Shown here piece after piece: positions 1 through 35,650 of a DNA stretch of 64,000 nucleotides. Under the pieces are notes generated by a model. It had not been told where the DNA came from. It searched no databases and saw only the letters and a list, made by a program, of their open reading frames with translations. The position numbers were made by a program, and so were the translations under genes. Where the stretch lies: the NCBI GenBank assembly GCA_003567725.1, contig PWYU01000077.1, positions 1 through 64,000 of the forward strand, read 5' to 3'. Within the stretch, counting starts at the first letter, position 1; each line of letters begins with the position of its first letter. Origin of the DNA: Syntrophomonadaceae bacterium (lineage in GTDB: Bacteria > Bacillota > Dethiobacteria > DTU022).

Positions 1-101
1 GCCGGGGCCAGGTGAAACTGGCACCCGGCGGTTTCGCCGCACTATAGAACAGGGAAACCACATTCGTGTTACGACACGATGAAAGCGACTACCCGTCGCA
101 C

Positions 102-126
102 AAAAAAGCTGCCCCTTTCGGGGCAG
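102..126 (-). terminator. Rho-independent terminator downstream of the encapsulin shell gene
   Basis: On the minus strand this reads ctgcccc-gaaa-ggggcag followed by TTTTTT, a GC hairpin plus T-run directly after the stop at 137. Confidence 0.6.
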
Positions 127-136
127 TCTTGCGGCT

Positions 137-928
137 TTAAAGAGTAAATTTAACTATCAGGGCCGGATCGAGAACCCTGAAAGTGAAAGATTCGGCGATA
201 TACAGCATGACATTCTTACTATCATGGTACTGATAACCGATCGAAAAATCAATACCCAGGTTTAATTCCAGGTCTTCGTGGTCATATGGGAGCAACAAGG
301 CGCCTTCTAAAGCAGGCGAGAACAGGATATCACCTTCAATTAATTCCTTGATTTGCCTGAATAGAGGGTAAGCCCCGGCTTCATGGTTGATTTGGTGCCA
401 GACTTTTTCCCCGGCAACCAGGATGAGAGGCGTGGAAGCAAAGTTGTCCTGGAGGGTAAGAACACCGTCTGTAACGGCATCCATTATTGAAGAAGCATCC
501 TGTCCGAACTCCAGGGTCTTATTGGCTGCCTGATTGAGGCCTTCAATATGGCCTTTTGAATAACCATTGAAAATAGCGTTCTCTTCAAACAGGGCTGCCT
601 TTCGGGCTGCTTCTTCCAGCGGCCCTAAGTCTACATCCCGGGCACCCCTGGTTAAATTGTCCATTTCCCAGCGATTCAAGGTAAATTCTGTCCTGGTTTC
701 AACTAAAGGTTTGACTTTATAAAGCCCTGTACTGACCTTCTCCGGGTTTTCTTCCAGAATTGAAAGTCTGCCTTCGGGTATTGCCGTATGGTTTAATCCA
801 CTGGGGCCGTCTACATGTACGATTTTACGGGCCGTAAGAACACTTTTCAAAATTTCCGTTGCTCTTTCATCTATTCCATCCCAGGCCTCTTCTGTTAAAG
901 GTGCCAGATGGCGTTTAAGAAAATCCAT
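137..928 (-). CDS. Family-1 encapsulin shell protein (HK97 fold, linocin M18-like)
   Basis: 263 aa. N-terminus MDFLKRHLAPLTEEAWDGIDERA and C-terminus ...SIGYQYHDSKNVMLYIAESFTFRVLDPALIVKF align closely, from memory, with the Thermotoga maritima encapsulin ([23 protein letters not shown] ... FTFQVVNPEALILLKF). It lies immediately downstream of a cargo gene. Confidence 0.85.
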   Translation of the reverse strand: MDFLKRHLAPLTEEAWDGIDERATEILKSVLTARKIVHVDGPSGLNHTAIPEGRLSILEENPEKVSTGLYKVKPLVETRTEFTLNRWEMDNLTRGARDVDLGPLEEAARKAALFEENAIFNGYSKGHIEGLNQAANKTLEFGQDASSIMDAVTDGVLTLQDNFASTPLILVAGEKVWHQINHEAGAYPLFRQIKELIEGDILFSPALEGALLLPYDHEDLELNLGIDFSIGYQYHDSKNVMLYIAESFTFRVLDPALIVKFTL

Positions 929-942
929 AGCTATCCCTCCTG

Positions 943-1296
943 CTATTTTTTCATACTGCCCAGGTTCAGGCCACCCGGGGTATTAGGGTTATTTCCATGG
1001 TCCGCATTGCCTTCTTCCGCATGACCGATGAAACCTTCTGTAAACAGGTTCGCTCGCAGCTCTTCATCCCAGCCGGGCATATTTCTCCTAAGCCATTCCA
1101 AAACCATGCAGGCATGCTCAATCTCTTCATCACGGTTATGTTTTAGAACTTCTTTTAGGGCATCATCATCAGAGACATCTATCCTCTGATGATACCAGAT
1201 CACCGCTTCCACTTCTTCCATGAGGCTCTGGAGAGCGCGGACGGAATCTTTTGCTTCAGTACTAAGCTGATCCGTTGGTTCTATATAATTTGACAC
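943..1296 (-). CDS. Encapsulated ferritin-like cargo protein (EncFtn) with C-terminal encapsulin targeting peptide
   Basis: 117 aa with a GTG start preceded by AGGAGG and a 7-nt spacer. The core WYHQRID...HNRDEEIEHACMVLEWLRRN...LFTEGFI matches the EncFtn E-x-x-H di-iron motif family. The C-terminus PGGLNLGSMKK fits the family-1 cargo-loading peptide pattern G-S/x-L-x-I/L-G-S-L/M-K. A 14-nt gap separates it from the shell gene. Confidence 0.8.
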   Translation of the reverse strand: MSNYIEPTDQLSTEAKDSVRALQSLMEEVEAVIWYHQRIDVSDDDALKEVLKHNRDEEIEHACMVLEWLRRNMPGWDEELRANLFTEGFIGHAEEGNADHGNNPNTPGGLNLGSMKK

Positions 1297-1337
1297 TTGG
1301 CTACCTCCTAACTTAAGTGATTTATACTCATAATAAA

Positions 1338-1366
1338 AGTATATAACAGCAGCTTTTTCCGGTCAA
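1338..1366 (-). promoter_or_regulatory. Sigma-A type promoter for the EncFtn-encapsulin operon
   Basis: Minus strand has TTGACC (rc at 1361-1366), a 17-nt spacer, and TATACT (rc at 1338-1343), about 40 nt upstream of the EncFtn RBS. Confidence 0.5.
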
Positions 1367-1613
1367 GGCAAAAACCAGAAAATATAAAATAGCGCGAGTT
1401 TGGGGCAAGTCTTGAATTGTTACTTATTCCGACGCTTTGGCCGGGCCAGGAGCATTCTTAAAAAGCAACCGGAACTTTAAACCTCCTCTATTCATTGGTA
1501 GTGCAGGTCAGACACAAATTCTATTGGATGACATTCTCCTTAATTATTGTACGTTTTGAATTTCTTGCCATCATTACTTAAGTATACTTTGTAACCTGCC
1601 AAAAACTGTACAC

Positions 1614-1651
1614 AAAAAGGTCTTAGGGTTTGTTGCCAACCCCAAGACCTT
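1614..1651 (-). terminator. Rho-independent terminator after the tRNA-Arg gene
   Basis: Minus strand reads AAGGTCTTGGGGTT-GGCAACAA-ACCCTAAGACCTT followed by TTTT. Confidence 0.55.
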
Positions 1652-1660
1652 TGTATTTAC

Positions 1661-1738
1661 TGGTGCGCCCGGCAGGATTTGAACCTGCGGCCTCCTGATT
1701 CGTAGTCAGTTACTCTATCCGGGCTGAGCTACGGGCGC
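1661..1738 (-). tRNA. tRNA-Arg (anticodon ACG)
   Basis: Reverse complement reads GCGCCCGTAGCTCAGCCCGGATAGAGTAACTGACTACGAATCAGGAGGCCGCAGGTTCAAATCCTGCCGGGCGCACCA. It has a 7-bp acceptor stem, GTTCAAATC T-loop, anticodon loop CU-ACG-AA and an encoded CCA. Confidence 0.85.
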
Positions 1739-1741
1739 ATA

Positions 1742-1835
1742 TGGCGGAGAGAGAGGGATTCGAACCCTCGAAGCGGGGTTTTACCCGCTTAATCGCTTAG
1801 CAGGCGACCGCCTTCGACCTCTCGGCCATCTCTCC
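1742..1835 (-). tRNA. tRNA-Ser (anticodon GCU), class II with long variable arm
   Basis: Reverse complement reads GGAGAGATGGCCGAGAGGTCGAAGGCGGTCGCCTGCTAAGCGAT...GGGTTCGAATCCCTCTCTCTCCGCCA. Anticodon loop is CU-GCT-AA. It has a long extra arm and a 7-bp acceptor stem (GGAGAGA/TCTCTCC) plus CCA. Confidence 0.85.
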
Positions 1836-1845
1836 ACGTTTCCCC

Positions 1846-1933
1846 TGGCGGAGGGGGTGGGATTCGAACCCACGGCCCTTTTCGGGTCACTGGTTTTCAA
1901 GACCAGCTCCTTAAACCACTCGGACACCCCTCC
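1846..1933 (-). tRNA. tRNA-Ser (anticodon UGA), class II
   Basis: Reverse complement reads GGAGGGGTGTCCGAGTGGTTTAAGGAGCTGGTCTTGAAAACCAGTGACCCGAAAAGGGCCGTGGGTTCGAATCCCACCCCCTCCGCCA. Anticodon loop is CT-TGA-AA. It has a long variable arm and CCA. Confidence 0.85.
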
Positions 1934-1956
1934 AGAAGGGTTAAATTGCATTATAA

Positions 1957-1985
1957 AGTATAGCAAAGCTGATAGTTTGTGTCAA
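1957..1985 (-). promoter_or_regulatory. Sigma-A promoter for the tRNA-Ser/Ser/Arg cluster
   Basis: Minus strand has TTGACA (rc 1980-1985), a 17-nt spacer, and TATACT (rc 1957-1962), about 25 nt upstream of the first tRNA 5' end. Confidence 0.55.
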
Positions 1986-2177
1986 TTGAGTTTTTTGAGC
2001 CCTGTGGTTTGACCCCATAAGCTCCATCATAGCTAATAGGGGTTCTCACCCTGTTCTTACTATATTAAAGTTATTTCTCGTTATCTATGATTCAGAATTA
2101 AACTTGCTCTTAAGCTAAAGACCATCGTTGCTTCATTAGCAATCCAGTATAAAAATCCTTGACAACAATTCTATTAA

Positions 2178-3458
2178 TCAGGAATCTGCTTTTATTATCT
2201 CCTGCCCGTTAAAGTAGGGGCGCAGGACTTTCGGTATAATCACGCTGCCGTCTTTCTGCTGGTAATTCTCAAGAATAGCGGCAACTGTTCTACCAATAGC
2301 TACCCCGGACCCGTTTAAGGTATGCACAAACTGGGCTTTTTTGCCACTTTCGGGGCGGTATCTAATACCTGCCCGACGAGCCTGAAAATCAGTAAAGTTG
2401 CTGCAGGAGGATATTTCGCGATAAGTCCCGGCAGCCGCCAGCCACACTTCCAGGTCATATTTTTTGGCAGGGGCAAAGCCAAGATCTCCGCTGCACATTA
2501 GCATAACCCGATAAGGCAGCTCCAAGAGCTGCAGGACTTTTTCTGCATCACGGGTCAATGATTCCAGCTCGTCCATTGAATCATTTGGGCGGACAAATTT
2601 GACCAGTTCCACTTTGTTAAACTGATGCTGGCGGATCAAACCCCGGGTATCGCGGCCATGGGCCCCGGCTTCTGCTCTAAAGCAGGCACTGTAGGCACAG
2701 TAATAGAGAGGAAGCTGATCGTCTTCCAAAATCTCATCGCGATGTAAGTTGGTAACAGGAACTTCTGCGGTGGGGATCAAGTACAAATCGGTCCCTTTAA
2801 CCCGAAAAGCATCTTCAGCAAATTTGGGAAGCTGACCGGTTCCGGTCATACTTGCCTCGTTGACAAGGAAAGGTGGGAAAACTTCACGGTAGCCATGCTC
2901 CGTTGTATGCAGATCAAGCATAAAATTAAATAAGGACCGTTCAAGCCTGGCACCGGCTCCGTAATAAAGAGCAAAACGACTTCCGGTTATTTTACCGGCT
3001 CTTGGAAAATCGATGATATCTAAGTTAGTACCGATGTCCCAGTGGGGGAGGGGCTCAAAATCAAATTCGGGCTGTTTTCCCCATACACGAACTTCTACAT
3101 TATCCGCTTCATCGCTACCTTGTGGGACTACAGAATCGGGCAGGTTAGGAAGGTTTAACAATAATTGCTCTATATTATTATCCAGCTGACGCAGCTGCTC
3201 ATCAAGATCTTTAATTTTCGCCGAGACTTCTCGCATTTCAGTTTTTTTATTTTCGGCAGCTTCACTTTTCCCACCAGATTGGCCAATTTCCTTGGAAACG
3301 CGATTGCGGATCTGTTTGAGCTCTTCTACTTCTTTGAGCAGCCTGCGACGATTATTATCTTGAGCCAGCAGGCCGTCAAGATCACCTTCTTCTCCTTTGA
3401 GATGCATAGCCTGACGAACAAGTTCCGGATTTTCCCGGACAAATTTTAAATCCAGCAT
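2178..3458 (-). CDS. serS: Seryl-tRNA synthetase
   Basis: 426 aa. It has an N-terminal coiled-coil tRNA-binding arm and a class-II aaRS core (…[25 protein letters not shown]…). It sits 30 nt downstream of argS. Confidence 0.95.
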
Positions 3459-3487
3459 AATAATTACACCTCCTTTTACTGTTACTG

Positions 3488-5197
3488 TTACATCTCTTCT
3501 GGCGCCACAATGCCAAGCAAGCTCAGCCCATTCGTCAATATCTGTCTGGTCGCATTAATCAATAGCAACCTGGCCTTTTTTATTTCCGGATCGCTGGTCA
3601 GAACAGGGCAGTTGTGATAAAAACGATTAAATTCCCTGGCTACGTCAATCAGGTAGCGAGCCAATATGGAAGGTTTGAGACTTTCAGCTGAATCTATTAT
3701 TTTTTCTGGCAGCATGGCCAGTGTTTTAATCAAAGTAATCTCTTCCTCTTTTTCCAGCAAAGCAATAACTTTGTCATCCCATGATAGTAAATCAGGTCCA
3801 GCTTTCCTGATAATACTACAAATCCTGGCATGAGCATACTGAATATACGCAGCAGTTTCACCTGAAAAGTCTAAAACTTTTTCCCAGTCAAATTCAATAT
3901 TTTTTACCCGGTCATTGCTTAAATCACCAAACCGCACCGCTCCTAAGCCGACCGCTTCGGCAGCGCCGTCCTTATCCTGCAGATCAGGGTTTTTTTCCTC
4001 TATTATGGCACGGGCCATCTCTACGGCTCGATCTAAAACTTCTTCCAGCAATACAATTTTACCAGCCCGGGTAGACATGCGCCCTTCTTTAAAACGAATC
4101 ATACCAAAAGGTACATGGACGCAATTAGCAGCCCAGGTGAAGCCAAGCAGCTCCAGTAATTTAAACAGCTGCTGAAAATGCAATGTTTGTTCAGCTCCAA
4201 CCACATAAAGAGAACGGGCAAAATTGAAGGTTTCTTTTCGGTAAATAGCCGCTGCCAGATCCCTGGTTATGTAAAGGGTGGCACCATCTTTTTTACGCAA
4301 CATAACTGGAGGCAGATTATAAGGCTCCAGTTCAATGATCAGAGCGCCTTCGCTTTCTTTCGCAATACCTTTTTCTTGAACAAGATTAACAACCTGATCA
4401 AGCATCTGATTATAATGGCTTTCCCCATGGTAGTGCTCGAATCCTATGCCCAGCCTGTCATAAATTTCAGCATAAGCTTCCAAGCTAAGCCTTTTAAAGT
4501 GTTCCCAGTAGGAAACGGCTTCCTTATCGCCGCTTTCCAGCTTTTTAAACCAGGAGCGGGCATCATCATCTAATTCTGGTTTATCATCAGCTTCCTGATG
4601 AAATTTCACATAAAGGCGGTATAGATAATCCACCGGATCATCTTTTAGTTTGCTTTCTTCACCCCATAGCTTGAAGGCAACAATTAACTTGCCAAATTGA
4701 GTTCCCCAGTCGCCAAGATGATTTATGCCTATGCTGTTATAACCAAGAGCCCGAAAAATGAGATATAGCGAATGGCCAATCACAGTGGAACGAATATGGC
4801 CAACCCCAAAAGGTTTGGCAATGTTAGGAGAGGAATAATCGATAGTTACATTTGCGCCCTCGCCAAGATTAGTATGGCCAAACTTATCCTGTTCTTCCCA
4901 TACTTTCTTTAAAACCTCTGTACTGTATGTTTCAGGGGCAATATAAAAGTTTAGATAAGGCCCTCTGGGCTCAGTATTTTTCCAGTACAAACCCTGTTTA
5001 CCGGCCAGTTTATTACCTAAATCCTCCGCTATAGCGGCTGGTGATTTTTTCATTTTTTTAGCCAATGTAAAGCAAGGGAAAGCAATATCTCCATAATCCG
5101 GTTCAGGGGGCACTTCCAAAAGATCTAATACCAACTTCTCCTCCATTTCAACAAGAGGAGCTAATACTACTCCTATTTCTTCTTTAAGTTTCTGCAT
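3488..5197 (-). CDS. argS: Arginyl-tRNA synthetase
   Basis: 569 aa, class-I ArgRS (…[20 protein letters not shown]…, a HIGH-like motif; C-terminal DALR anticodon-binding region). RBS GGAGA. Confidence 0.95.
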
Positions 5198-21924: not shown

Positions 21925-22182
21925 AAAAAACCCTCCGCCCAAAGGGGCGAAGGGGCTTCCTCCGCGGTACCACCCTTTTCATATCTGACCTTAACAATAG
22001 TTCAAGGTGTTTCTCAACGATTTTGATAACGGTATCACCCCGGCCCGGCTTACTATTAATTCAGCCAGGCGGCTCCAGACCGACATTCAACATCACCCTT
22101 TACCGGTTTCCAGCAAATCCGGCTCTCTGTAAAAAGAATAATGCTTACTCCTGTCTTTCACAGCATTTAAAGTAAAAGATTG
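21925..22182 (-). promoter_or_regulatory. T-box riboswitch leader controlling ilvE-ilvD-ilvBN-leuCD
   Basis: Minus strand carries the conserved T-box sequence AAAGGGTGGTACCGCGG (rc of 21962-21978). Directly after it is the terminator hairpin CCCTTCGCCC-CTTTG-GGCGGAGGG + TTTTTT (rc of 21925-21957). The 5' portion contains an AGAGAG stem-I element. The specifier codon is not resolved by eye. Confidence 0.7.
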
Positions 22183-31865: not shown

Positions 31866-33782
<1,917 letters not shown>

Positions 33783-33872
33783 TCACCTCTTGTCTTTAGC
33801 TTAAAAATATTTAACCACTTAAACTATTATATCATTTTTTACCCTTAACTGTAGAAATTCAAAGCTAGCTTT

Positions 33873-34112
33873 TCATGCAGAAGAATTATGCCGCCTGGAA
33901 AGGGTAAGGGGAGATATTGGGGAAATATAAACTTCTTTATCGGTTACAACAAAAGATTTTGAGTGATCATTGCCAAAAACTTTATATAAAGCATCATCAG
34001 ACGCAATATCAAGAAGCTGCGCATTATTTTTTCTGGCCGGAGGAGTTATGTTAAAGATACCTATTAAGTCACTACAAAAAATTATCTTTGAATTGCCTAT
34101 GTGAATAAACAT
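33873..34112 (-). CDS. remB: DUF370 / RemB (YaaB)-like small protein
   Basis: 79 aa beginning MFIHIGNSKIIFCSDLIGIFN…KSFVVTDKEVYIS. This is the conserved position between recF and gyrB seen in Bacillus (yaaB). Confidence 0.6.
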   Translation of the reverse strand: MFIHIGNSKIIFCSDLIGIFNITPPARKNNAQLLDIASDDALYKVFGNDHSKSFVVTDKEVYISPISPLTLSRRHNSSA

Positions 34113-34221
34113 ATCAGCTCTCCTTGTACTGAATTCATATTGATTAATAACTGCTATGTTAATGATCTAATCTTTAAATTTTAACTTACTTTACTTTGTT
34201 ATTATTTAAATAAAGATATTC

Positions 34222-34524
34222 TTATTCCTTCTTTTCAAAATCACCAATTTTAAAATAAATATCATTTACCACCTTGCTGCCCACATGATTATTTAATTTT
34301 TTTATTAATTGTGGTTTCAGCAACGAAAGATGGTAAGACCACACGGAGTCTTTAACCAAAACTTGCAACAGGCCGTTTGATATTTTCACCGCCTTAGTAA
34401 CTGTGGATAACTCCGATCCTACTATTTCAGGCCACTTTTCAATAATCAGATACTGCTGATAACCAGACCAAAGATTATTACGACGGAGAATACTCTCAAT
34501 CACCGGTCCCAACCGTTTCATCAA
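34222..34524 (-). CDS. DUF721 (DciA-like) protein
   Basis: 100 aa. The W-x-x-IVG…L…G-L-V-V-x-S-x-W…EL pattern (…EKWPEIVGSELSTVTKAVKISNGLLQVLVKDSVWSYHLSLLKPQL…) is typical of DUF721. It sits between recF and gyrB as in many non-Firmicute bacteria. Confidence 0.6.
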   Translation of the reverse strand: MMKRLGPVIESILRRNNLWSGYQQYLIIEKWPEIVGSELSTVTKAVKISNGLLQVLVKDSVWSYHLSLLKPQLIKKLNNHVGSKVVNDIYFKIGDFEKKE

Positions 34525-35650
34525 TAATACTCCCCTGCTTAATAATTATTTTCTTATAGCTTTTATTAAGATAGTTCACCATAGTATCCAAGTCAACCGC
34601 GGAAGTCAAAAAACATTGCCCTGAATAATTTCTTAAAAAACTCAGCAGGTGTTGTTTCCTATCAGCATCAAATTCAGAAAAAACATCGTCTAACAATAAA
34701 ATGGGGGGTATAGAATTTTGCTTCATATAGAGACCAACTTCCCCCATTCTCAAAGCAAGAGCTGCTGTTCTTTTTTGCCCTTGCGAGGCAAAAACCCTGG
34801 TACTATTACCATTTATCTTTATATTCAAATCATCCAGGTGCGGGCCGAGGAGGGTTGAATAGCGTTTTAATTCTTGCTCGCGATTATTCAGCAAATCATT
34901 ATAAAACTGTTCTTCCATTTCCTCAGGTTCATCAAAATAACGGATTGTGCTTTCATATTCAAGAGAAAGCTCTTCTTCTGTATCACTTAATTGATTAAAA
35001 ATTACCTTTGCTTCCTTTTGAAGGGCTTTGATCATTTCAACCCGCGAACGGATAAGCTTTACTCCAAGATTAGTAAGTGAACGATCCCAGGGGGATAGAT
35101 AATCATTGATTTTGTTTATATTACTTTTTTGCTTTAACACTTTATTGCGCTGATTAAGGACTCTCTGATAATCCCTAAGATCTTTTAAATATGTAATATC
35201 TAAGCGGGAAGCTTCCAGGTTTAAAAACCGTCTGCGAATAGAAGGACCCTCACTAACTATTTTTAGATCCTCGGGACTAAAGACAATGGTAGGAAAAGCA
35301 GGCATACAGTCATAGCGATTAACTTGATCATTGTTTGCTTTAATGGACAAGCGAGAATTATGACGATAGTTGATTTGAATTGCATGTTTAAAGCAGTCCT
35401 TAATATAATTCCCTTTTAAAGAAAAACCATCACCCTTAAAATTAACCAACTCTTGTTCTTTTCTGGTCCTAAAAGATCGATTAACTGATATAAAAAAAAT
35501 AGATTCCAATAAATTTGTTTTACCCTGAGCATTTGCTCCACAAATAATGTTCAGCTTGGGGTTAAAAGAAAATAATTGACTGCCATAATTACGGAAACCC
35601 TCCATGGACAAATGATCGAGATAAAACAAACAATTCCCTCCAAAAATCAA
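34496..35650 (-). CDS. recF: DNA replication/repair protein RecF
   Basis: 384 aa. Walker A is GANAQGKTN. It has the …FRNY… N-terminus and an SMC-like signature. The start overlaps the dnaN stop (ATGA). Confidence 0.9.
   Translation of the reverse strand: MIFGGNCLFYLDHLSMEGFRNYGSQLFSFNPKLNIICGANAQGKTNLLESIFFISVNRSFRTRKEQELVNFKGDGFSLKGNYIKDCFKHAIQINYRHNSRLSIKANNDQVNRYDCMPAFPTIVFSPEDLKIVSEGPSIRRRFLNLEASRLDITYLKDLRDYQRVLNQRNKVLKQKSNINKINDYLSPWDRSLTNLGVKLIRSRVEMIKALQKEAKVIFNQLSDTEEELSLEYESTIRYFDEPEEMEEQFYNDLLNNREQELKRYSTLLGPHLDDLNIKINGNSTRVFASQGQKRTAALALRMGEVGLYMKQNSIPPILLLDDVFSEFDADRKQHLLSFLRNYSGQCFLTSAVDLDTMVNYLNKSYKKIIIKQGSIIDETVGTGD

What the first reader, a model, noticed from the sequence alone, without database searches (positions are those of the whole stretch)
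102..1366. Compact EncFtn-encapsulin nanocompartment operon at the window edge
Two genes form a clean promoter-to-terminator unit. The first encodes an EncFtn-type ferritin-like cargo: a four-helix core with the E-x-x-H motif and the C-terminal peptide PGGLNLGSMKK, which fits the family-1 encapsulin loading signal. The second encodes a 263-aa HK97-fold shell protein very close to the Thermotoga maritima encapsulin at both termini. The unit sits next to a tRNA/aaRS locus. An iron-storage/oxidative-stress nanocompartment in what looks like an anaerobic Firmicute would be a notable organelle-like system. An imperfect 12-13-nt repeat (gccggggccagg at 1-13; gccgggccagg at 1442-1454) brackets the operon and could mark an insertion.
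Basis: partly seen in the sequence, partly recalled or inferred. Interest (0 to 1): 0.7.

Follow-up and report, generated by a model that had tools for sequence, protein, structure and literature searches.

The report
Ordinary ferritin-loaded encapsulin operon, relocating cassette
This is a genuine but typical two-gene bacterial "iron-storage nanocompartment" (a protein shell plus its ferritin-like cargo) from an uncultured anaerobic soda-lake bacterium; the one unexpected feature is that the two genes behave as a small self-contained cassette that sits in different genomic places in related species.

Summary
The operon is real. On the minus strand, a 117-aa EncFtn cargo (943-1296) and a 263-aa family-1 encapsulin shell (137-928) lie between a sigma-70-like promoter (1338-1366) and a terminator (109-126). 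Both proteins clear the curated family cut-offs. All ferroxidase ligands are kept. The C-terminal loading peptide fits the published consensus and is conserved in relatives while the linker drifts. The shell model superimposes on the T. maritima T=1 shell (TM 0.93, 39% identity) and keeps the flavin-stacking Trp87. The host is an uncultured Syntrophomonadaceae-like MAG from soda-lake sediment. Such systems are already known to be common in Firmicutes, so this is a new member of a known kind.

The proposed 12-nt bracketing repeat is not supported. It occurs by chance (67 of 500 shuffles). One copy is a hairpin arm inside the unit and the other lies in flanking DNA.

The insertion idea survives on other evidence. 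The promoter-to-tail cassette occupies at least 12 gene contexts in relatives. In four lineages it is flanked by ~47-nt copies of the tRNA-Arg(ACG) 3' half. The closest relative has an operon-free version of this exact site. No integrase was found, so the mechanism of movement is unproven.

The parts
1361..1366 (-). -35 box TTGACC of the operon promoter
   Evidence: Consensus scan, 10 of 12 matches. CTTGAC is invariant in 9 related loci.
1338..1343 (-). -10 box TATACT (TATGCT in most relatives), 17-nt spacer
   Evidence: This is a consensus match only; transcription was not shown.
1297..1337 (-). 5'UTR with the conserved motif ATGAGTATAAATCA (1318-1331) and the AGGAGG ribosome-binding site (1304-1309)
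   Evidence: Conserved across 20+ loci. The role of the motif is unknown.
943..1296 (-). EncFtn (encapsulated ferritin-like) cargo gene, 117 aa, GTG start
   Evidence: PF22277 E=7.7e-39. TIGR04535 scores 144.5 bits against a cut-off of 125. Ungapped alignment to R. rubrum EncFtn 5DA5, E=9e-26.
1114..1125 (-). Codons for the E58-I-E-H61 motif (E-x-x-H), equivalent to R. rubrum Glu62/His65. Further ligand codons: E28 at 1213-1215, Y35 at 1192-1194
   Evidence: Offset-4 alignment to 5DA5. Invariant in 11 homologs. Ligand roles are taken from PMC11202242.
946..978 (-). Codons for the C-terminal targeting peptide PGGLNLGSMKK
   Evidence: Fits the consensus L(F)-X1-V(I)-X2X3-L(I) (PMC11202242). Conserved as SLxL/IGxM/LKK while the preceding ~12-aa linker varies.
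137..928 (-). Family-1 encapsulin shell gene, 263 aa
   Evidence: PF04454 E=2.7e-79. NF041155 equivalog scores 262.7 bits against a cut-off of 100. 3DKT E=1.9e-55 over the full length. AF2 model pLDDT 92.2, TM 0.93 to 7KQ5/3DKT.
668..670 (-). Codon for Trp87, the flavin-stacking residue of the T. maritima shell
   Evidence: The alignment is ungapped up to residue 178. At least 90% conserved in 42 homologs. Role taken from PMC8086157 and PMC8610991.
99..126 (-). Intrinsic-terminator-like hairpin CTGCCCC-GAAA-GGGGCAG followed by a T-run
   Evidence: The hairpin is conserved in relatives.
1..98 (-). Structured 3' tail of the cassette.
   Evidence: Same-population contig L001. RNA fold z=-7.4. Shared with L002/13/14, L007/22 and L009. 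No Rfam family matched.
1384..1396 (.). Approximate upstream boundary of the relocating cassette
   Evidence: Homology to all relatives' cassettes begins at L001 9538-9561. Homology to the L014 operon-free site ends at L001 ~9530.
1397..1607 (.). Flank DNA (spacer) conserved with the operon-free site of relative L014.
   Evidence: 76% identity over 211 nt to L014 4409-4617.
1608..1660 (-). Terminator-like hairpin of the tRNA cluster
   Evidence: Inverted repeat I2. Conserved next to the tRNA-Arg fragments in relatives.
1661..1738 (-). tRNA-Arg(ACG). Its 3' ~47 nt (anticodon loop to CCA) is the sequence found as fragments flanking the cassette in relatives
   Evidence: ARAGORN and Rfam. nhmmer fragment hits with E=2e-7 to 3e-8.

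Best explanation
This is a classical (family 1) encapsulin system with an EncFtn-type ferritin-like cargo.

Shown here:
- Both genes are intact, co-oriented, 14 nt apart and each has its own Shine-Dalgarno sequence. They lie between a consensus-like promoter and a terminator.
- The cargo keeps every ferroxidase-centre and secondary metal-site residue. It carries a disordered linker and then a conserved loading peptide.
- The shell is a full-length homolog of T=1 shells, at both sequence and fold level, and it has the flavin-stacking Trp87.
- Both genes are under purifying selection.

Inferred from the characterised T. maritima, R. rubrum and H. ochraceum systems:
- 60 shell subunits assemble into a ~24-nm T=1 icosahedron.
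- EncFtn dimers form di-iron ferroxidase centres and assemble into D5 decamers. The C-terminal peptide tethers these to the cleft between the shell's N-terminal helix and P-domain.
- Fe(II) enters through the shell pores, is oxidised at the ferroxidase centres, and is deposited as a ferric mineral held by the shell lumen.
- The compartment thus sequesters iron and protects against oxidative stress. In this anaerobe it probably acts during transient O2 or peroxide exposure near the sediment surface. A shell-bound flavin may serve as an electron conduit.

Secondary claim (about 0.5 that the cassette relocates as a unit; about 0.25-0.3 for the att mechanism specifically): the ~1.5-1.7-kb promoter-to-tail unit is a discrete cassette within a variable region downstream of tRNA-Arg(ACG). 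It was shaped by past site-specific integration and accretion events.
For: Identity:
- PF04454 2.7e-79 and PF22277 7.7e-39.
- NF041155 equivalog 262.7 bits and TIGR04535 144.5 bits, both above cut-off.
- PDB: shell vs 3DKT 1.9e-55 over the full length; cargo vs 5DA5 9.4e-26 without gaps.

Ligands: E27, E28, E30, W34, Y35, E58 and H61 correspond to R. rubrum E31, E32, E34, W38, Y39, E62 and H65. All are invariant in 11 homologs (roles from PMC11202242).

Loading peptide: it fits the published consensus and is conserved while the linker varies. No other ORF in the window has such a tail.

Fold: pLDDT 92.2. The top 27 PDB hits are all T=1 family-1 shells at TM 0.86-0.93. The T=3/T=4 shells score 0.77-0.83.

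Other: Trp87 is present (PMC8086157, PMC8610991). dN/dS is 0.07-0.14 for the shell and 0.09-0.41 for the cargo. The host is anaerobic soda-lake Syntrophomonadaceae (PMC6146748, PMC6704655).

Cassette behaviour:
- At least 12 contexts, reproducible across independent assemblies.
- The upstream homology boundary is the same in all loci.
- tRNA-Arg 3' fragments flank the cassette in L002/13/14, L007/22, L009 and (degenerate) L001.
- L013/L014 show a tandem array.
- L014 has an operon-free site.
Against: No experiment was done, so assembly, cargo loading, ferroxidase activity and flavin binding are all inferred. X1 of the loading peptide is Asn rather than the usual Gly/Thr/Ser, and the last hydrophobic residue is Met rather than Leu/Ile. 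The promoter and terminator are consensus matches only.

Against the mobility claim:
- No tyrosine integrase was found in 30 flanking ORFs; only a truncated DDE transposase appeared in L013.
- The downstream tRNA-Arg fragment in this genome is degenerate (nhmmer E=0.05-0.08) and lies outside the window.
- Five or more contexts show no fragments at all.
- All comparators are metagenome contigs or MAGs.
- General genome rearrangement at this level of divergence (SerRS 87% and ArgRS 79% amino-acid identity) was not measured as a baseline.
Confidence: 0.9

Rival explanations
1. The 12-nt imperfect direct repeats at 1-12 and 1440-1450 are target-site duplications or att sites marking a recent insertion of the operon.
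For: Both sequences exist. Taken alone, a 12-mer match within one mismatch is rare in 64 kb (0.19 expected).
Against: The copies differ by an indel. When any pair across the two flanks is allowed, 67 of 500 shuffles do as well. Copy 1 is one arm of a hairpin inside the conserved cassette tail. Copy 2 lies 45-55 nt outside the cassette boundary, in flank DNA shared with the L014 operon-free site, where the sequence differs. Neither copy is at a junction, and copy 2 has no counterpart in relatives.
Confidence: 0.02
2. The variable position of the operon reflects ordinary genome rearrangement or metagenome mis-assembly, not any special mobility. The tRNA-Arg fragments belong to unrelated islands that happen to lie nearby.
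For: No recombinase is associated with the cassette. Several contexts lack fragments. The lineages are fairly diverged: SerRS dS 1.6 and ArgRS dS 2.5 between L001 and L006. All data come from MAGs or metagenomes.
Against: The same contexts recur in independent samples (L003=L015, L006=L021, L007=L022). Neighbouring blocks keep their own synteny while the cassette shifts between them; L009 has the upstream genes of L002 and the downstream genes of L007. The homology boundary is sharp and identical, just upstream of the -35 box, in all loci. The fragments abut the cassette tail at the same relative position in four lineages.
Confidence: 0.4
3. The shell gene is a remnant HK97-type prophage capsid gene, or a 'linocin M18 bacteriocin', rather than a nanocompartment shell.
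For: Encapsulins share the HK97 fold with phage capsids. Databases still label homologs 'bacteriocin'.
Against: The equivalog-level NCBIfam hit is to the family-1 encapsulin shell. A dedicated cargo with a loading peptide lies directly upstream. No portal, protease, terminase or other phage genes occur in any of ~30 loci. The best structural matches are encapsulins.
Confidence: 0.01
4. The operon is a decaying, non-functional relic.
For: It sits in a region with decayed tRNA fragments and, in a relative, a truncated transposase.
Against: Both ORFs are intact in more than 25 loci. dN/dS is 0.07-0.16 in most pairs. Ligands, loading peptide, promoter and ribosome-binding sites are all conserved.
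Confidence: 0.03

Closest known systems
Thermotoga maritima encapsulin (TM_0785; PDB 3DKT, 7KQ5) with its ferritin-like cargo
   Same: Same operon order (cargo gene, then shell gene) and same shell length (263 vs 264-265 aa). Full-length colinear alignment; predicted fold TM 0.93, rmsd 2.2 A. The flavin-stacking Trp87 is conserved. The cargo has a C-terminal loading peptide. Both hosts are anaerobes.
   Different: Only ~40% shell identity. The loading peptide (SLNLGSMKK-type) resembles the R. rubrum/H. ochraceum SLGIGSLK type more than the T. maritima GGDLGIRKL type. The host is a mesophilic haloalkaliphilic Firmicute, not a hyperthermophile.
Rhodospirillum rubrum EncFtn (Rru_A0973; PDB 5DA5) and Haliangium ochraceum EncFtn (5N5F, 7OE2)
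   Same: Ungapped alignment over residues 5-99. Identical ferroxidase-centre residues (Glu32/Glu62/His65, Tyr39) and entry-site residues. Disordered linker followed by an SLxIGSLK-like loading peptide.
   Different: X1 of the peptide is Asn and the terminal hydrophobic residue is Met. The linker is shorter (~20 aa). The oligomeric state was not tested here.
Family-1 Flp/EncFtn encapsulin operons of Clostridia (for example Alkaliphilus, Acetobacterium, Tindallia, Clostridiisalibacter)
   Same: 50-56% shell identity and the same length. Several are annotated as family 1 encapsulin shell protein. [quoted passage not shown]
   Different: This lineage (soda-lake Syntrophomonadaceae MAGs) forms its own cluster at 81% identity or more. 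The nearest other match is 69% and the nearest named species about 55%.
Cis-mobilizable elements (CIMEs) and tandem islands at tRNA/tmRNA genes (S. thermophilus ICESt1-related elements; Dehalococcoides ssrA islands, PMC3146451; review PMC5704250)
   Same: Segments are delimited by direct repeats of the 3' part of a tRNA gene and arranged in tandem downstream of the intact gene. Some segments lack integration genes. The content of the array varies between lineages.
   Different: This segment is far smaller (1.5-1.7 kb, two genes). The repeats are decayed (3-6 mismatches in ~45 nt). No cognate integrase was identified. In this genome the cassette sits ~340 nt downstream of the tRNA rather than at the att position. 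Mobilisation was not shown.

Membership tests
Family 1 (classical) encapsulin | Shell protein of the HK97 fold that matches the family profile | tested here: met
   PF04454 266 bits; NF041155 equivalog 262.7 bits against a cut-off of 100. 3DKT E=1.9e-55. AF2 model pLDDT 92, TM 0.93 to 7KQ5/3DKT.
Family 1 (classical) encapsulin | Stand-alone shell with no fused cargo, cNMP-binding domain or N-terminal extension (this separates it from fusion types and Family 2) | tested here: met
   263 aa, colinear with the 264-265-aa T. maritima shell from residue 1 to 259. It has a single Pfam domain covering residues 1-249.
Family 1 (classical) encapsulin | Primary cargo encoded directly upstream and carrying a C-terminal targeting peptide | tested here: met
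   EncFtn ends 14 nt upstream of the shell ATG. LNLGSM fits L(F)X1V(I)X2X3L(I). The peptide is conserved against a variable linker.
Family 1 (classical) encapsulin | Self-assembly into an icosahedral shell (T=1 expected) with the cargo inside | not testable with these tools
   Indirect evidence only. All 27 best structural matches are T=1 shells, and T=3/T=4 shells match less well.
EncFtn / Flp-TP encapsulated ferritin | Match to the EncFtn profiles above curated cut-offs | tested here: met
   PF22277 131.8 bits against 27. TIGR04535 144.5 bits against 125. The EncB_fam model is below its cut-off (64.9 against 90), so this is not the M. xanthus EncB type.
EncFtn / Flp-TP encapsulated ferritin | Di-iron ferroxidase-centre ligands (R. 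rubrum Glu32, Glu62, His65; E-x-x-H) and Tyr39 | tested here: met
   E28, E58, H61 and Y35, read from the ungapped alignment to 5DA5. All are invariant in 11 homologs.
EncFtn / Flp-TP encapsulated ferritin | Annular D5 decamer and ferroxidase activity that the shell enhances | not testable with these tools
   Needs native mass spectrometry or cryo-EM and an Fe(II) oxidation assay.
Flavin-binding (TmEnc-type) encapsulin subgroup | Tryptophan at the position of T. maritima Trp87 (called W90 in PMC8610991) | tested here: met
   W87 lies in FTLNRWEMDNL, aligned to FTLDLWELDNL. It is at least 90% conserved among 42 homologs.
Flavin-binding (TmEnc-type) encapsulin subgroup | Bound flavin (yellow particles, absorbance at 360/450 nm) | not testable with these tools
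   Needs purification and spectroscopy, with a W87E control.
tRNA-integrated island / cis-mobilizable element | Flanked by direct repeats (attL/attR) derived from the 3' part of the target tRNA gene | tested here: inconclusive
   Clear in relatives: L002/13/14 on both sides, and L007/22 and L009 downstream, with nhmmer E=2e-6 to 3e-8. In this genome there is an intact tRNA-Arg upstream, but the cassette starts ~340 nt after it. The downstream copy is degenerate (E=0.05-0.08; L001 11015-11047, outside the window). It is positionally orthologous to the L007 fragment.
tRNA-integrated island / cis-mobilizable element | No integration or transfer genes of its own | tested here: met
   The unit holds only the two encapsulin genes.
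tRNA-integrated island / cis-mobilizable element | Presence/absence polymorphism with an empty site in relatives | tested here: met
   L014 4387-4616 and 4853-4973 match both flanks. They are separated by 235 nt instead of the 1.69-kb cassette.
tRNA-integrated island / cis-mobilizable element | Excision or integration by a cognate site-specific recombinase | not testable with these tools
   No tyrosine or serine integrase was found among 30 flanking ORFs. The rest of the genome was not available.
HK97-type prophage capsid module | Linked portal, maturation protease, terminase and other morphogenesis genes | tested here: not met
   The neighbours are aaRS genes, tRNAs and metabolic or transport genes in every locus.

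The most novel reading that the evidence does not exclude
The EncFtn-encapsulin operon is the sole payload of a miniature (~1.5-1.7 kb), integrase-less cassette bounded by tRNA-Arg-derived att sites. It would resemble a minimal cis-mobilizable element, excised and re-integrated in trans by a tRNA-Arg(ACG)-specific integrase encoded elsewhere or on an incoming island. That would give a concrete mechanism for the frequent horizontal transfer of encapsulin operons that has so far been inferred only from their phylogenetic distribution.
Probability: 0.25. Interest if true: 0.5.

Novelty: new member of a known kind. Interest (0 to 1): 0.3.

Why it matters
As a nanocompartment, it adds an unannotated member from an uncultured, abundant group of haloalkaliphilic anaerobes to a well-characterised family. 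It also fits two reported trends: Flp-type cargos are concentrated in Firmicutes, and the flavin-binding Trp87 shell variant tracks with anaerobes. This makes it a reasonable candidate for testing whether shell-bound flavin matters for iron handling without O2.

The more useful lead is genomic. The operon behaves as a compact, self-contained promoter-to-terminator module whose position changes between close lineages, and it is associated with tRNA-Arg att-like repeats. If that reflects real mobilisation, it would explain how encapsulin systems spread between lineages, and it would identify a naturally portable two-gene organelle module.

Tried and rejected
2. A PerR- or Fur-type operator in the promoter was rejected. 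A PerR-box-like site at 1322-1336 has 2 mismatches, and the window holds 4 such hits against 1.2 expected. But relatives carry 4-5 mismatches there, and the best other hit sits at the gyrB start in the AT-rich origin region. The Fur box gave no hit in the promoter.
3. An Rfam search of the 3' tail and spacer returned only sub-threshold chance hits. The long tail hairpin shows uncompensated mismatches in L002, so I do not claim a conserved RNA.
4. A Pfam search of 30 flanking ORFs for an integrase or transposase found only a truncated rve_3 fragment in L013.
5. A scan of all window ORFs for secondary cargo with a targeting-peptide-like C-terminus found none.
6. The test for recent transfer by synonymous divergence was inconclusive. 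Between L001 and L006 the cassette has pS 0.51-0.57, against 0.66-0.72 for the adjacent SerRS and ArgRS. That is lower, but all values are near saturation and codon bias could explain the difference.
7. The DNA left of window base 1 could not be recovered from the window's own 65,366-nt contig. The 99.945%-identical contig L001 supplied 415 nt more.
Full report
OBSERVATION. Both genes are on the minus strand. A 117-aa ORF at 943-1296 has a GTG start and an AGGAGG box 7 nt upstream. Fourteen nucleotides after it comes a 263-aa ORF at 137-928, with an ATG start and a GGAGGG box. A sigma-70-like TTGACC-17-TATACT lies at 1366-1338. A 7-bp GC-rich hairpin with a T-run lies at 126-109. tRNA-Arg(ACG), tRNA-Ser(GCU), tRNA-Ser(UGA), SerRS and ArgRS follow on the same strand at 1661-5197.

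IDENTITY OF THE TWO PROTEINS. The shell matches Pfam Linocin_M18 (E=2.7e-79) and the NCBIfam equivalog 'family 1 encapsulin nanocompartment shell protein' (262.7 bits, cut-off 100). The cargo matches Pfam EncFtn-like (E=7.7e-39) and TIGR04535 'encapsulin-associated ferritin-like protein' (144.5 bits, cut-off 125). It falls below the cut-off of the M. xanthus EncB-type model.

Against solved structures, the shell aligns over its full length to the T. maritima encapsulin (3DKT, E=1.9e-55). The cargo aligns without gaps to R. rubrum EncFtn (5DA5, E=9.4e-26). With the constant offset of 4, R. rubrum Glu32, Glu62 and His65 (the ferroxidase centre), Tyr39, and Glu31, Glu34 and Trp38 correspond to E28, E58, H61, Y35, E27, E30 and W34 here. 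All are invariant in eleven homologs. Their roles are described in PMC11202242. That review also states that the monomer has two long helices and that the four-helix bundle with its di-iron site forms across a dimer.

LOADING PEPTIDE. The published FLP targeting-peptide consensus is L(F)-X1-V(I)-X2X3-L(I), with X1 = G/T/S and X2X3 = GS/GT. R. rubrum and H. ochraceum carry SLGIGSLK. The cargo here ends in GG-L-N-L-G-S-M-KK. The hydrophobic positions and the GS pair fit. Asn at X1 and Met at the last position are conservative departures. Across relatives the peptide is kept as S-L-(N/K/R/G)-(L/I)-G-(S/N/G)-(M/L)-K-K, while the ~12 residues before it vary freely. That is the pattern expected for a functional signal at the end of a disordered tether. 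No other ORF in the 64-kb window has such a tail.

SHELL STRUCTURE AND SUBTYPE. An AlphaFold2 model built from a 42-sequence alignment has mean pLDDT 92.2 and pTM 0.87. Its best PDB matches are T. maritima 7KQ5 and 3DKT (TM 0.93, rmsd 2.2 A, 39% identity). The top 27 hits are all T=1 family-1 shells. T=3 and T=4 shells (M. xanthus EncA, Q. thermotolerans, B. methanolicus) match at TM 0.77-0.83. I infer a T=1 particle, but this is not shown.

Identity to the T. maritima shell is 39.8% overall, 18/30 at the N-terminus and 12/30 at the C-terminus. This is homology, not 'very close'. The shell keeps Trp87, which stacks on the flavin in the T. maritima shell. Trp occurs at this position in only ~10% of Linocin_M18 sequences (PMC8086157). 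The same residue is called W90 in PMC8610991. That paper reports it in 35% of FLP-loaded encapsulins and says almost all of them come from anaerobes. Here W87 is at least 90% conserved among 42 homologs.

SELECTION. Pairwise dN/dS against ten relatives is 0.07-0.14 for the shell and 0.09-0.16 for the cargo. The cargo reaches 0.41 only in the closest, low-count pair. Both genes are maintained by purifying selection.

SOURCE ORGANISM AND HOW UNUSUAL THE SYSTEM IS. The exact proteins occur on two NCBI MAG contigs. One is 65,366 nt and is evidently the window's source. The other is SLJP01000057.1 of GCA_007135065.1 (locus L001), which is 99.945% identical to the window over 10,928 nt. Neither protein carries a name in any source. 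Relatives at 81-94% shell identity are 'Syntrophomonadaceae bacterium' or 'Bacillota bacterium' MAGs and soda-lake brine or sediment metagenome contigs. These Dethiobacter-related populations are abundant, and they are putatively acetogenic or syntrophic anaerobes. They live in sediment where oxygen vanishes within 2-4 mm (PMC6146748, PMC6704655). So 'anaerobic Firmicute' is right.

The system is not unusual there. [quoted passage not shown] Named homologs at 50-56% identity occur in Alkaliphilus, Acetobacterium, Tindallia, Clostridiisalibacter and others. This is a new member of a known kind.

THE PROPOSED BRACKETING REPEAT. GCCGGGGCCAGG is at 1-12 and GCCGGGCCAGG is at 1440-1450. The two differ by an indel. 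When any 11/12-mer pair across the two flanks is allowed, 67 of 500 dinucleotide shuffles give at least one equally good pair. L001 extends 415 nt beyond the window edge. It shows that bases 1-30 are a long hairpin (CCGCCGGGTGCCAG-TTTCAT-CTGGCCCCGGCGG on the operon strand) inside a structured 3' tail. The copy at 1440-1450 lies in spacer DNA that is not part of the unit conserved among relatives. The repeat does not mark an insertion.

WHAT THE COMPARISON WITH RELATIVES SHOWS INSTEAD. I collected 29 related loci. Four observations follow.

(1) Homology to the window's unit begins at the same point in all close relatives. That point is L001 9538-9561, or window ~1368-1391, just upstream of the -35 box. 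Homology runs through the terminator.

(2) The flanking genes fall into at least 12 different contexts. Independent assemblies from different samples give the same context within a lineage (L003=L015, L006=L021, L007=L022, L017~L018~L020). Neighbouring blocks keep their own synteny. For example, L009 combines the upstream genes of L002 with the downstream genes of L007. Only L006/L021 share the SerRS-ArgRS neighbourhood, and there the operon is inverted and no tRNAs lie between.

(3) In L002/L013/L014, L007/L022 and L009 the cassette tail is followed directly by a ~47-nt copy of tRNA-Arg(ACG), from the anticodon loop to CCA (nhmmer E=2e-7 to 3e-8). L002/13/14 have a second copy upstream. L013 and L014 together read as follows: tRNA-Ser, tRNA-Ser, tRNA-Arg; then a 3.6-kb segment holding a truncated rve_3 transposase, a PGI-like gene and a Pyr_redox gene; then a fragment, the encapsulin cassette and a second fragment; then a 5.4-kb segment holding MFS, DUF308 and Sulf_transp genes; then a third fragment. 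This is the layout produced by serial site-specific integration at a tRNA gene, followed by decay. It has been described for tandem islands and cis-mobilizable elements (PMC5704250, PMC3146451). In the window's own lineage a degenerate copy (E=0.05-0.08) lies at L001 11015-11047. It is positionally orthologous to the L007 fragment. It sits about 90-120 nt beyond window base 1.

(4) L014 contains an operon-free version of this exact site. L014 4387-4616 matches the window's spacer (L001 9300-9530, 76% identity). L014 4853-4973 matches the far end of the L001 tail (L001 11223-11343, 91% identity). The two are separated by 235 nt of unrelated, internally repetitive sequence rather than by the 1.69-kb cassette. 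L014's own cassette lies 2.8 kb away between two fragments.

So the promoter-to-tail unit has changed position between the two closest lineages, and its boundaries are sharp.

LIMITS OF THE MOBILITY INFERENCE. No tyrosine or serine integrase was found among 30 flanking ORFs. Several contexts have no tRNA fragments. The fragments carry 3-6 mismatches. In this genome the cassette begins ~340 nt after the tRNA, not at the att position. All comparators are metagenomic, and I could not measure baseline rearrangement. Synonymous divergence of the cassette between L001 and L006 (pS 0.51-0.57) is lower than that of the adjacent SerRS and ArgRS (0.66-0.72), but all values are near saturation. Four lineages share the link between the cassette and the tRNA-Arg region, so whatever happened is not a recent insertion in this genome. 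I put about 0.5 on 'the cassette relocates as a unit' and about 0.25-0.3 on the specific att/CIME-like mechanism.

MECHANISM. By homology with the T. maritima, R. rubrum and H. ochraceum systems, 60 shell subunits should form a ~24-nm T=1 shell. EncFtn decamers, whose di-iron ferroxidase centres form at dimer interfaces, should be tethered by the C-terminal peptide in the P-domain/N-helix cleft. Fe(II) entering through the pores should be oxidised and deposited as a mineral retained by the shell, since EncFtn alone cannot hold mineral (PMC8346489, PMC11202242). The presence of Trp87 predicts a shell-bound flavin, which PMC8610991 suggests may matter under anoxic conditions. All of these steps are inferred. 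None was tested here.

LEADS THAT FAILED. A PerR-like box at 1322-1336 is not conserved in relatives. No Fur box lies in the promoter. No Rfam family matches the tail. No second cargo is present in the window.

VERDICT. The finding is a correct identification of an ordinary family-1 EncFtn encapsulin operon. The repeat-based insertion argument is wrong. A better-supported and modestly interesting observation replaces it: the operon is a compact cassette that relocates within a tRNA-Arg-associated variable region.

Noticed in passing
L014 4387-4973 (homolog of window ~1399-1629 plus DNA beyond the window's left edge): An operon-free version of this locus. Both flanks are conserved (76% and 91% identity). 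235 nt of unrelated sequence with short tandem duplications (caagacctgaccccaacttctt x2, gcaccataataaca x2) takes the place of the 1.69-kb cassette. A Sulf_transp (YeeE/YedE-like) gene follows.
   Followed up: yes
L013 1470-7113 and L014 95-7237: A tandem array downstream of tRNA-Ser/tRNA-Ser/tRNA-Arg. Three segments are delimited by ~47-nt tRNA-Arg(ACG) 3' fragments. The first segment begins with a truncated rve_3 (DDE transposase) ORF at L013 2025-2393.
   Followed up: partly
window 1318-1331 (minus strand): The 5'UTR motif ATGAGTATAAATCA, just downstream of the -10 box, is nearly invariant across 20+ related loci even though the sequence around it varies. It could be an operator half-site or a leader element. 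It does not match the PerR or Fur consensus in relatives.
   Followed up: partly
window 1-98 and L001 10830-10935: A strongly structured 3' tail follows the terminator (RNA fold z=-7.4). It includes a 13-bp GC-rich hairpin and is shared by four lineages. There is no Rfam match, and the mismatches in L002 are not compensated, so it may be a decaying recombination-site or terminator remnant.
   Followed up: partly
L006 1475-2002 and L021 (same context): A classical ferritin gene (PF00210, E=1.4e-25) lies directly upstream of the encapsulin operon in this lineage. At least some of these bacteria therefore carry both iron-storage systems side by side.
   Followed up: no
L007 4677-7695 and L009 6855-9858: An ABC transporter gene set lies immediately downstream of the cassette and its tRNA-Arg fragment in two lineages: a 385-aa putative binding protein, a 356-aa permease-like protein and a 253-aa ATPase with a Walker A motif. 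Judged by eye from the translations it resembles iron-siderophore/cobalamin-type transporters. No profile search was run.
   Followed up: no
window 31866-35650: gyrB (637 aa), a small DUF721-like ORF and recF lie here. The window is therefore close to the chromosomal replication origin, and the encapsulin cassette is about 30 kb from it.
   Followed up: no
window 21940-22170 (minus strand): A T-box leader (Rfam RF00230, 119 bits, E=9e-26). It is unrelated to the finding.
   Followed up: no
L001 cassette compared with L001 5732-8748 (window 137-1296 compared with 2178-5197): Between L001 and L006, synonymous divergence of the two encapsulin genes (pS 0.51-0.57) is lower than that of the adjacent SerRS and ArgRS (0.66-0.72). 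This could mean later exchange of the cassette between lineages, or stronger codon bias.
   Followed up: partly
L001 11343 (contig end): Contig L001 stops within ~0.55 kb downstream of the shell gene, and the window's source contig can extend at most ~1.4 kb beyond the window. Breaks this close to the operon in both assemblies suggest a repeat or population polymorphism just beyond the cassette.
   Followed up: no
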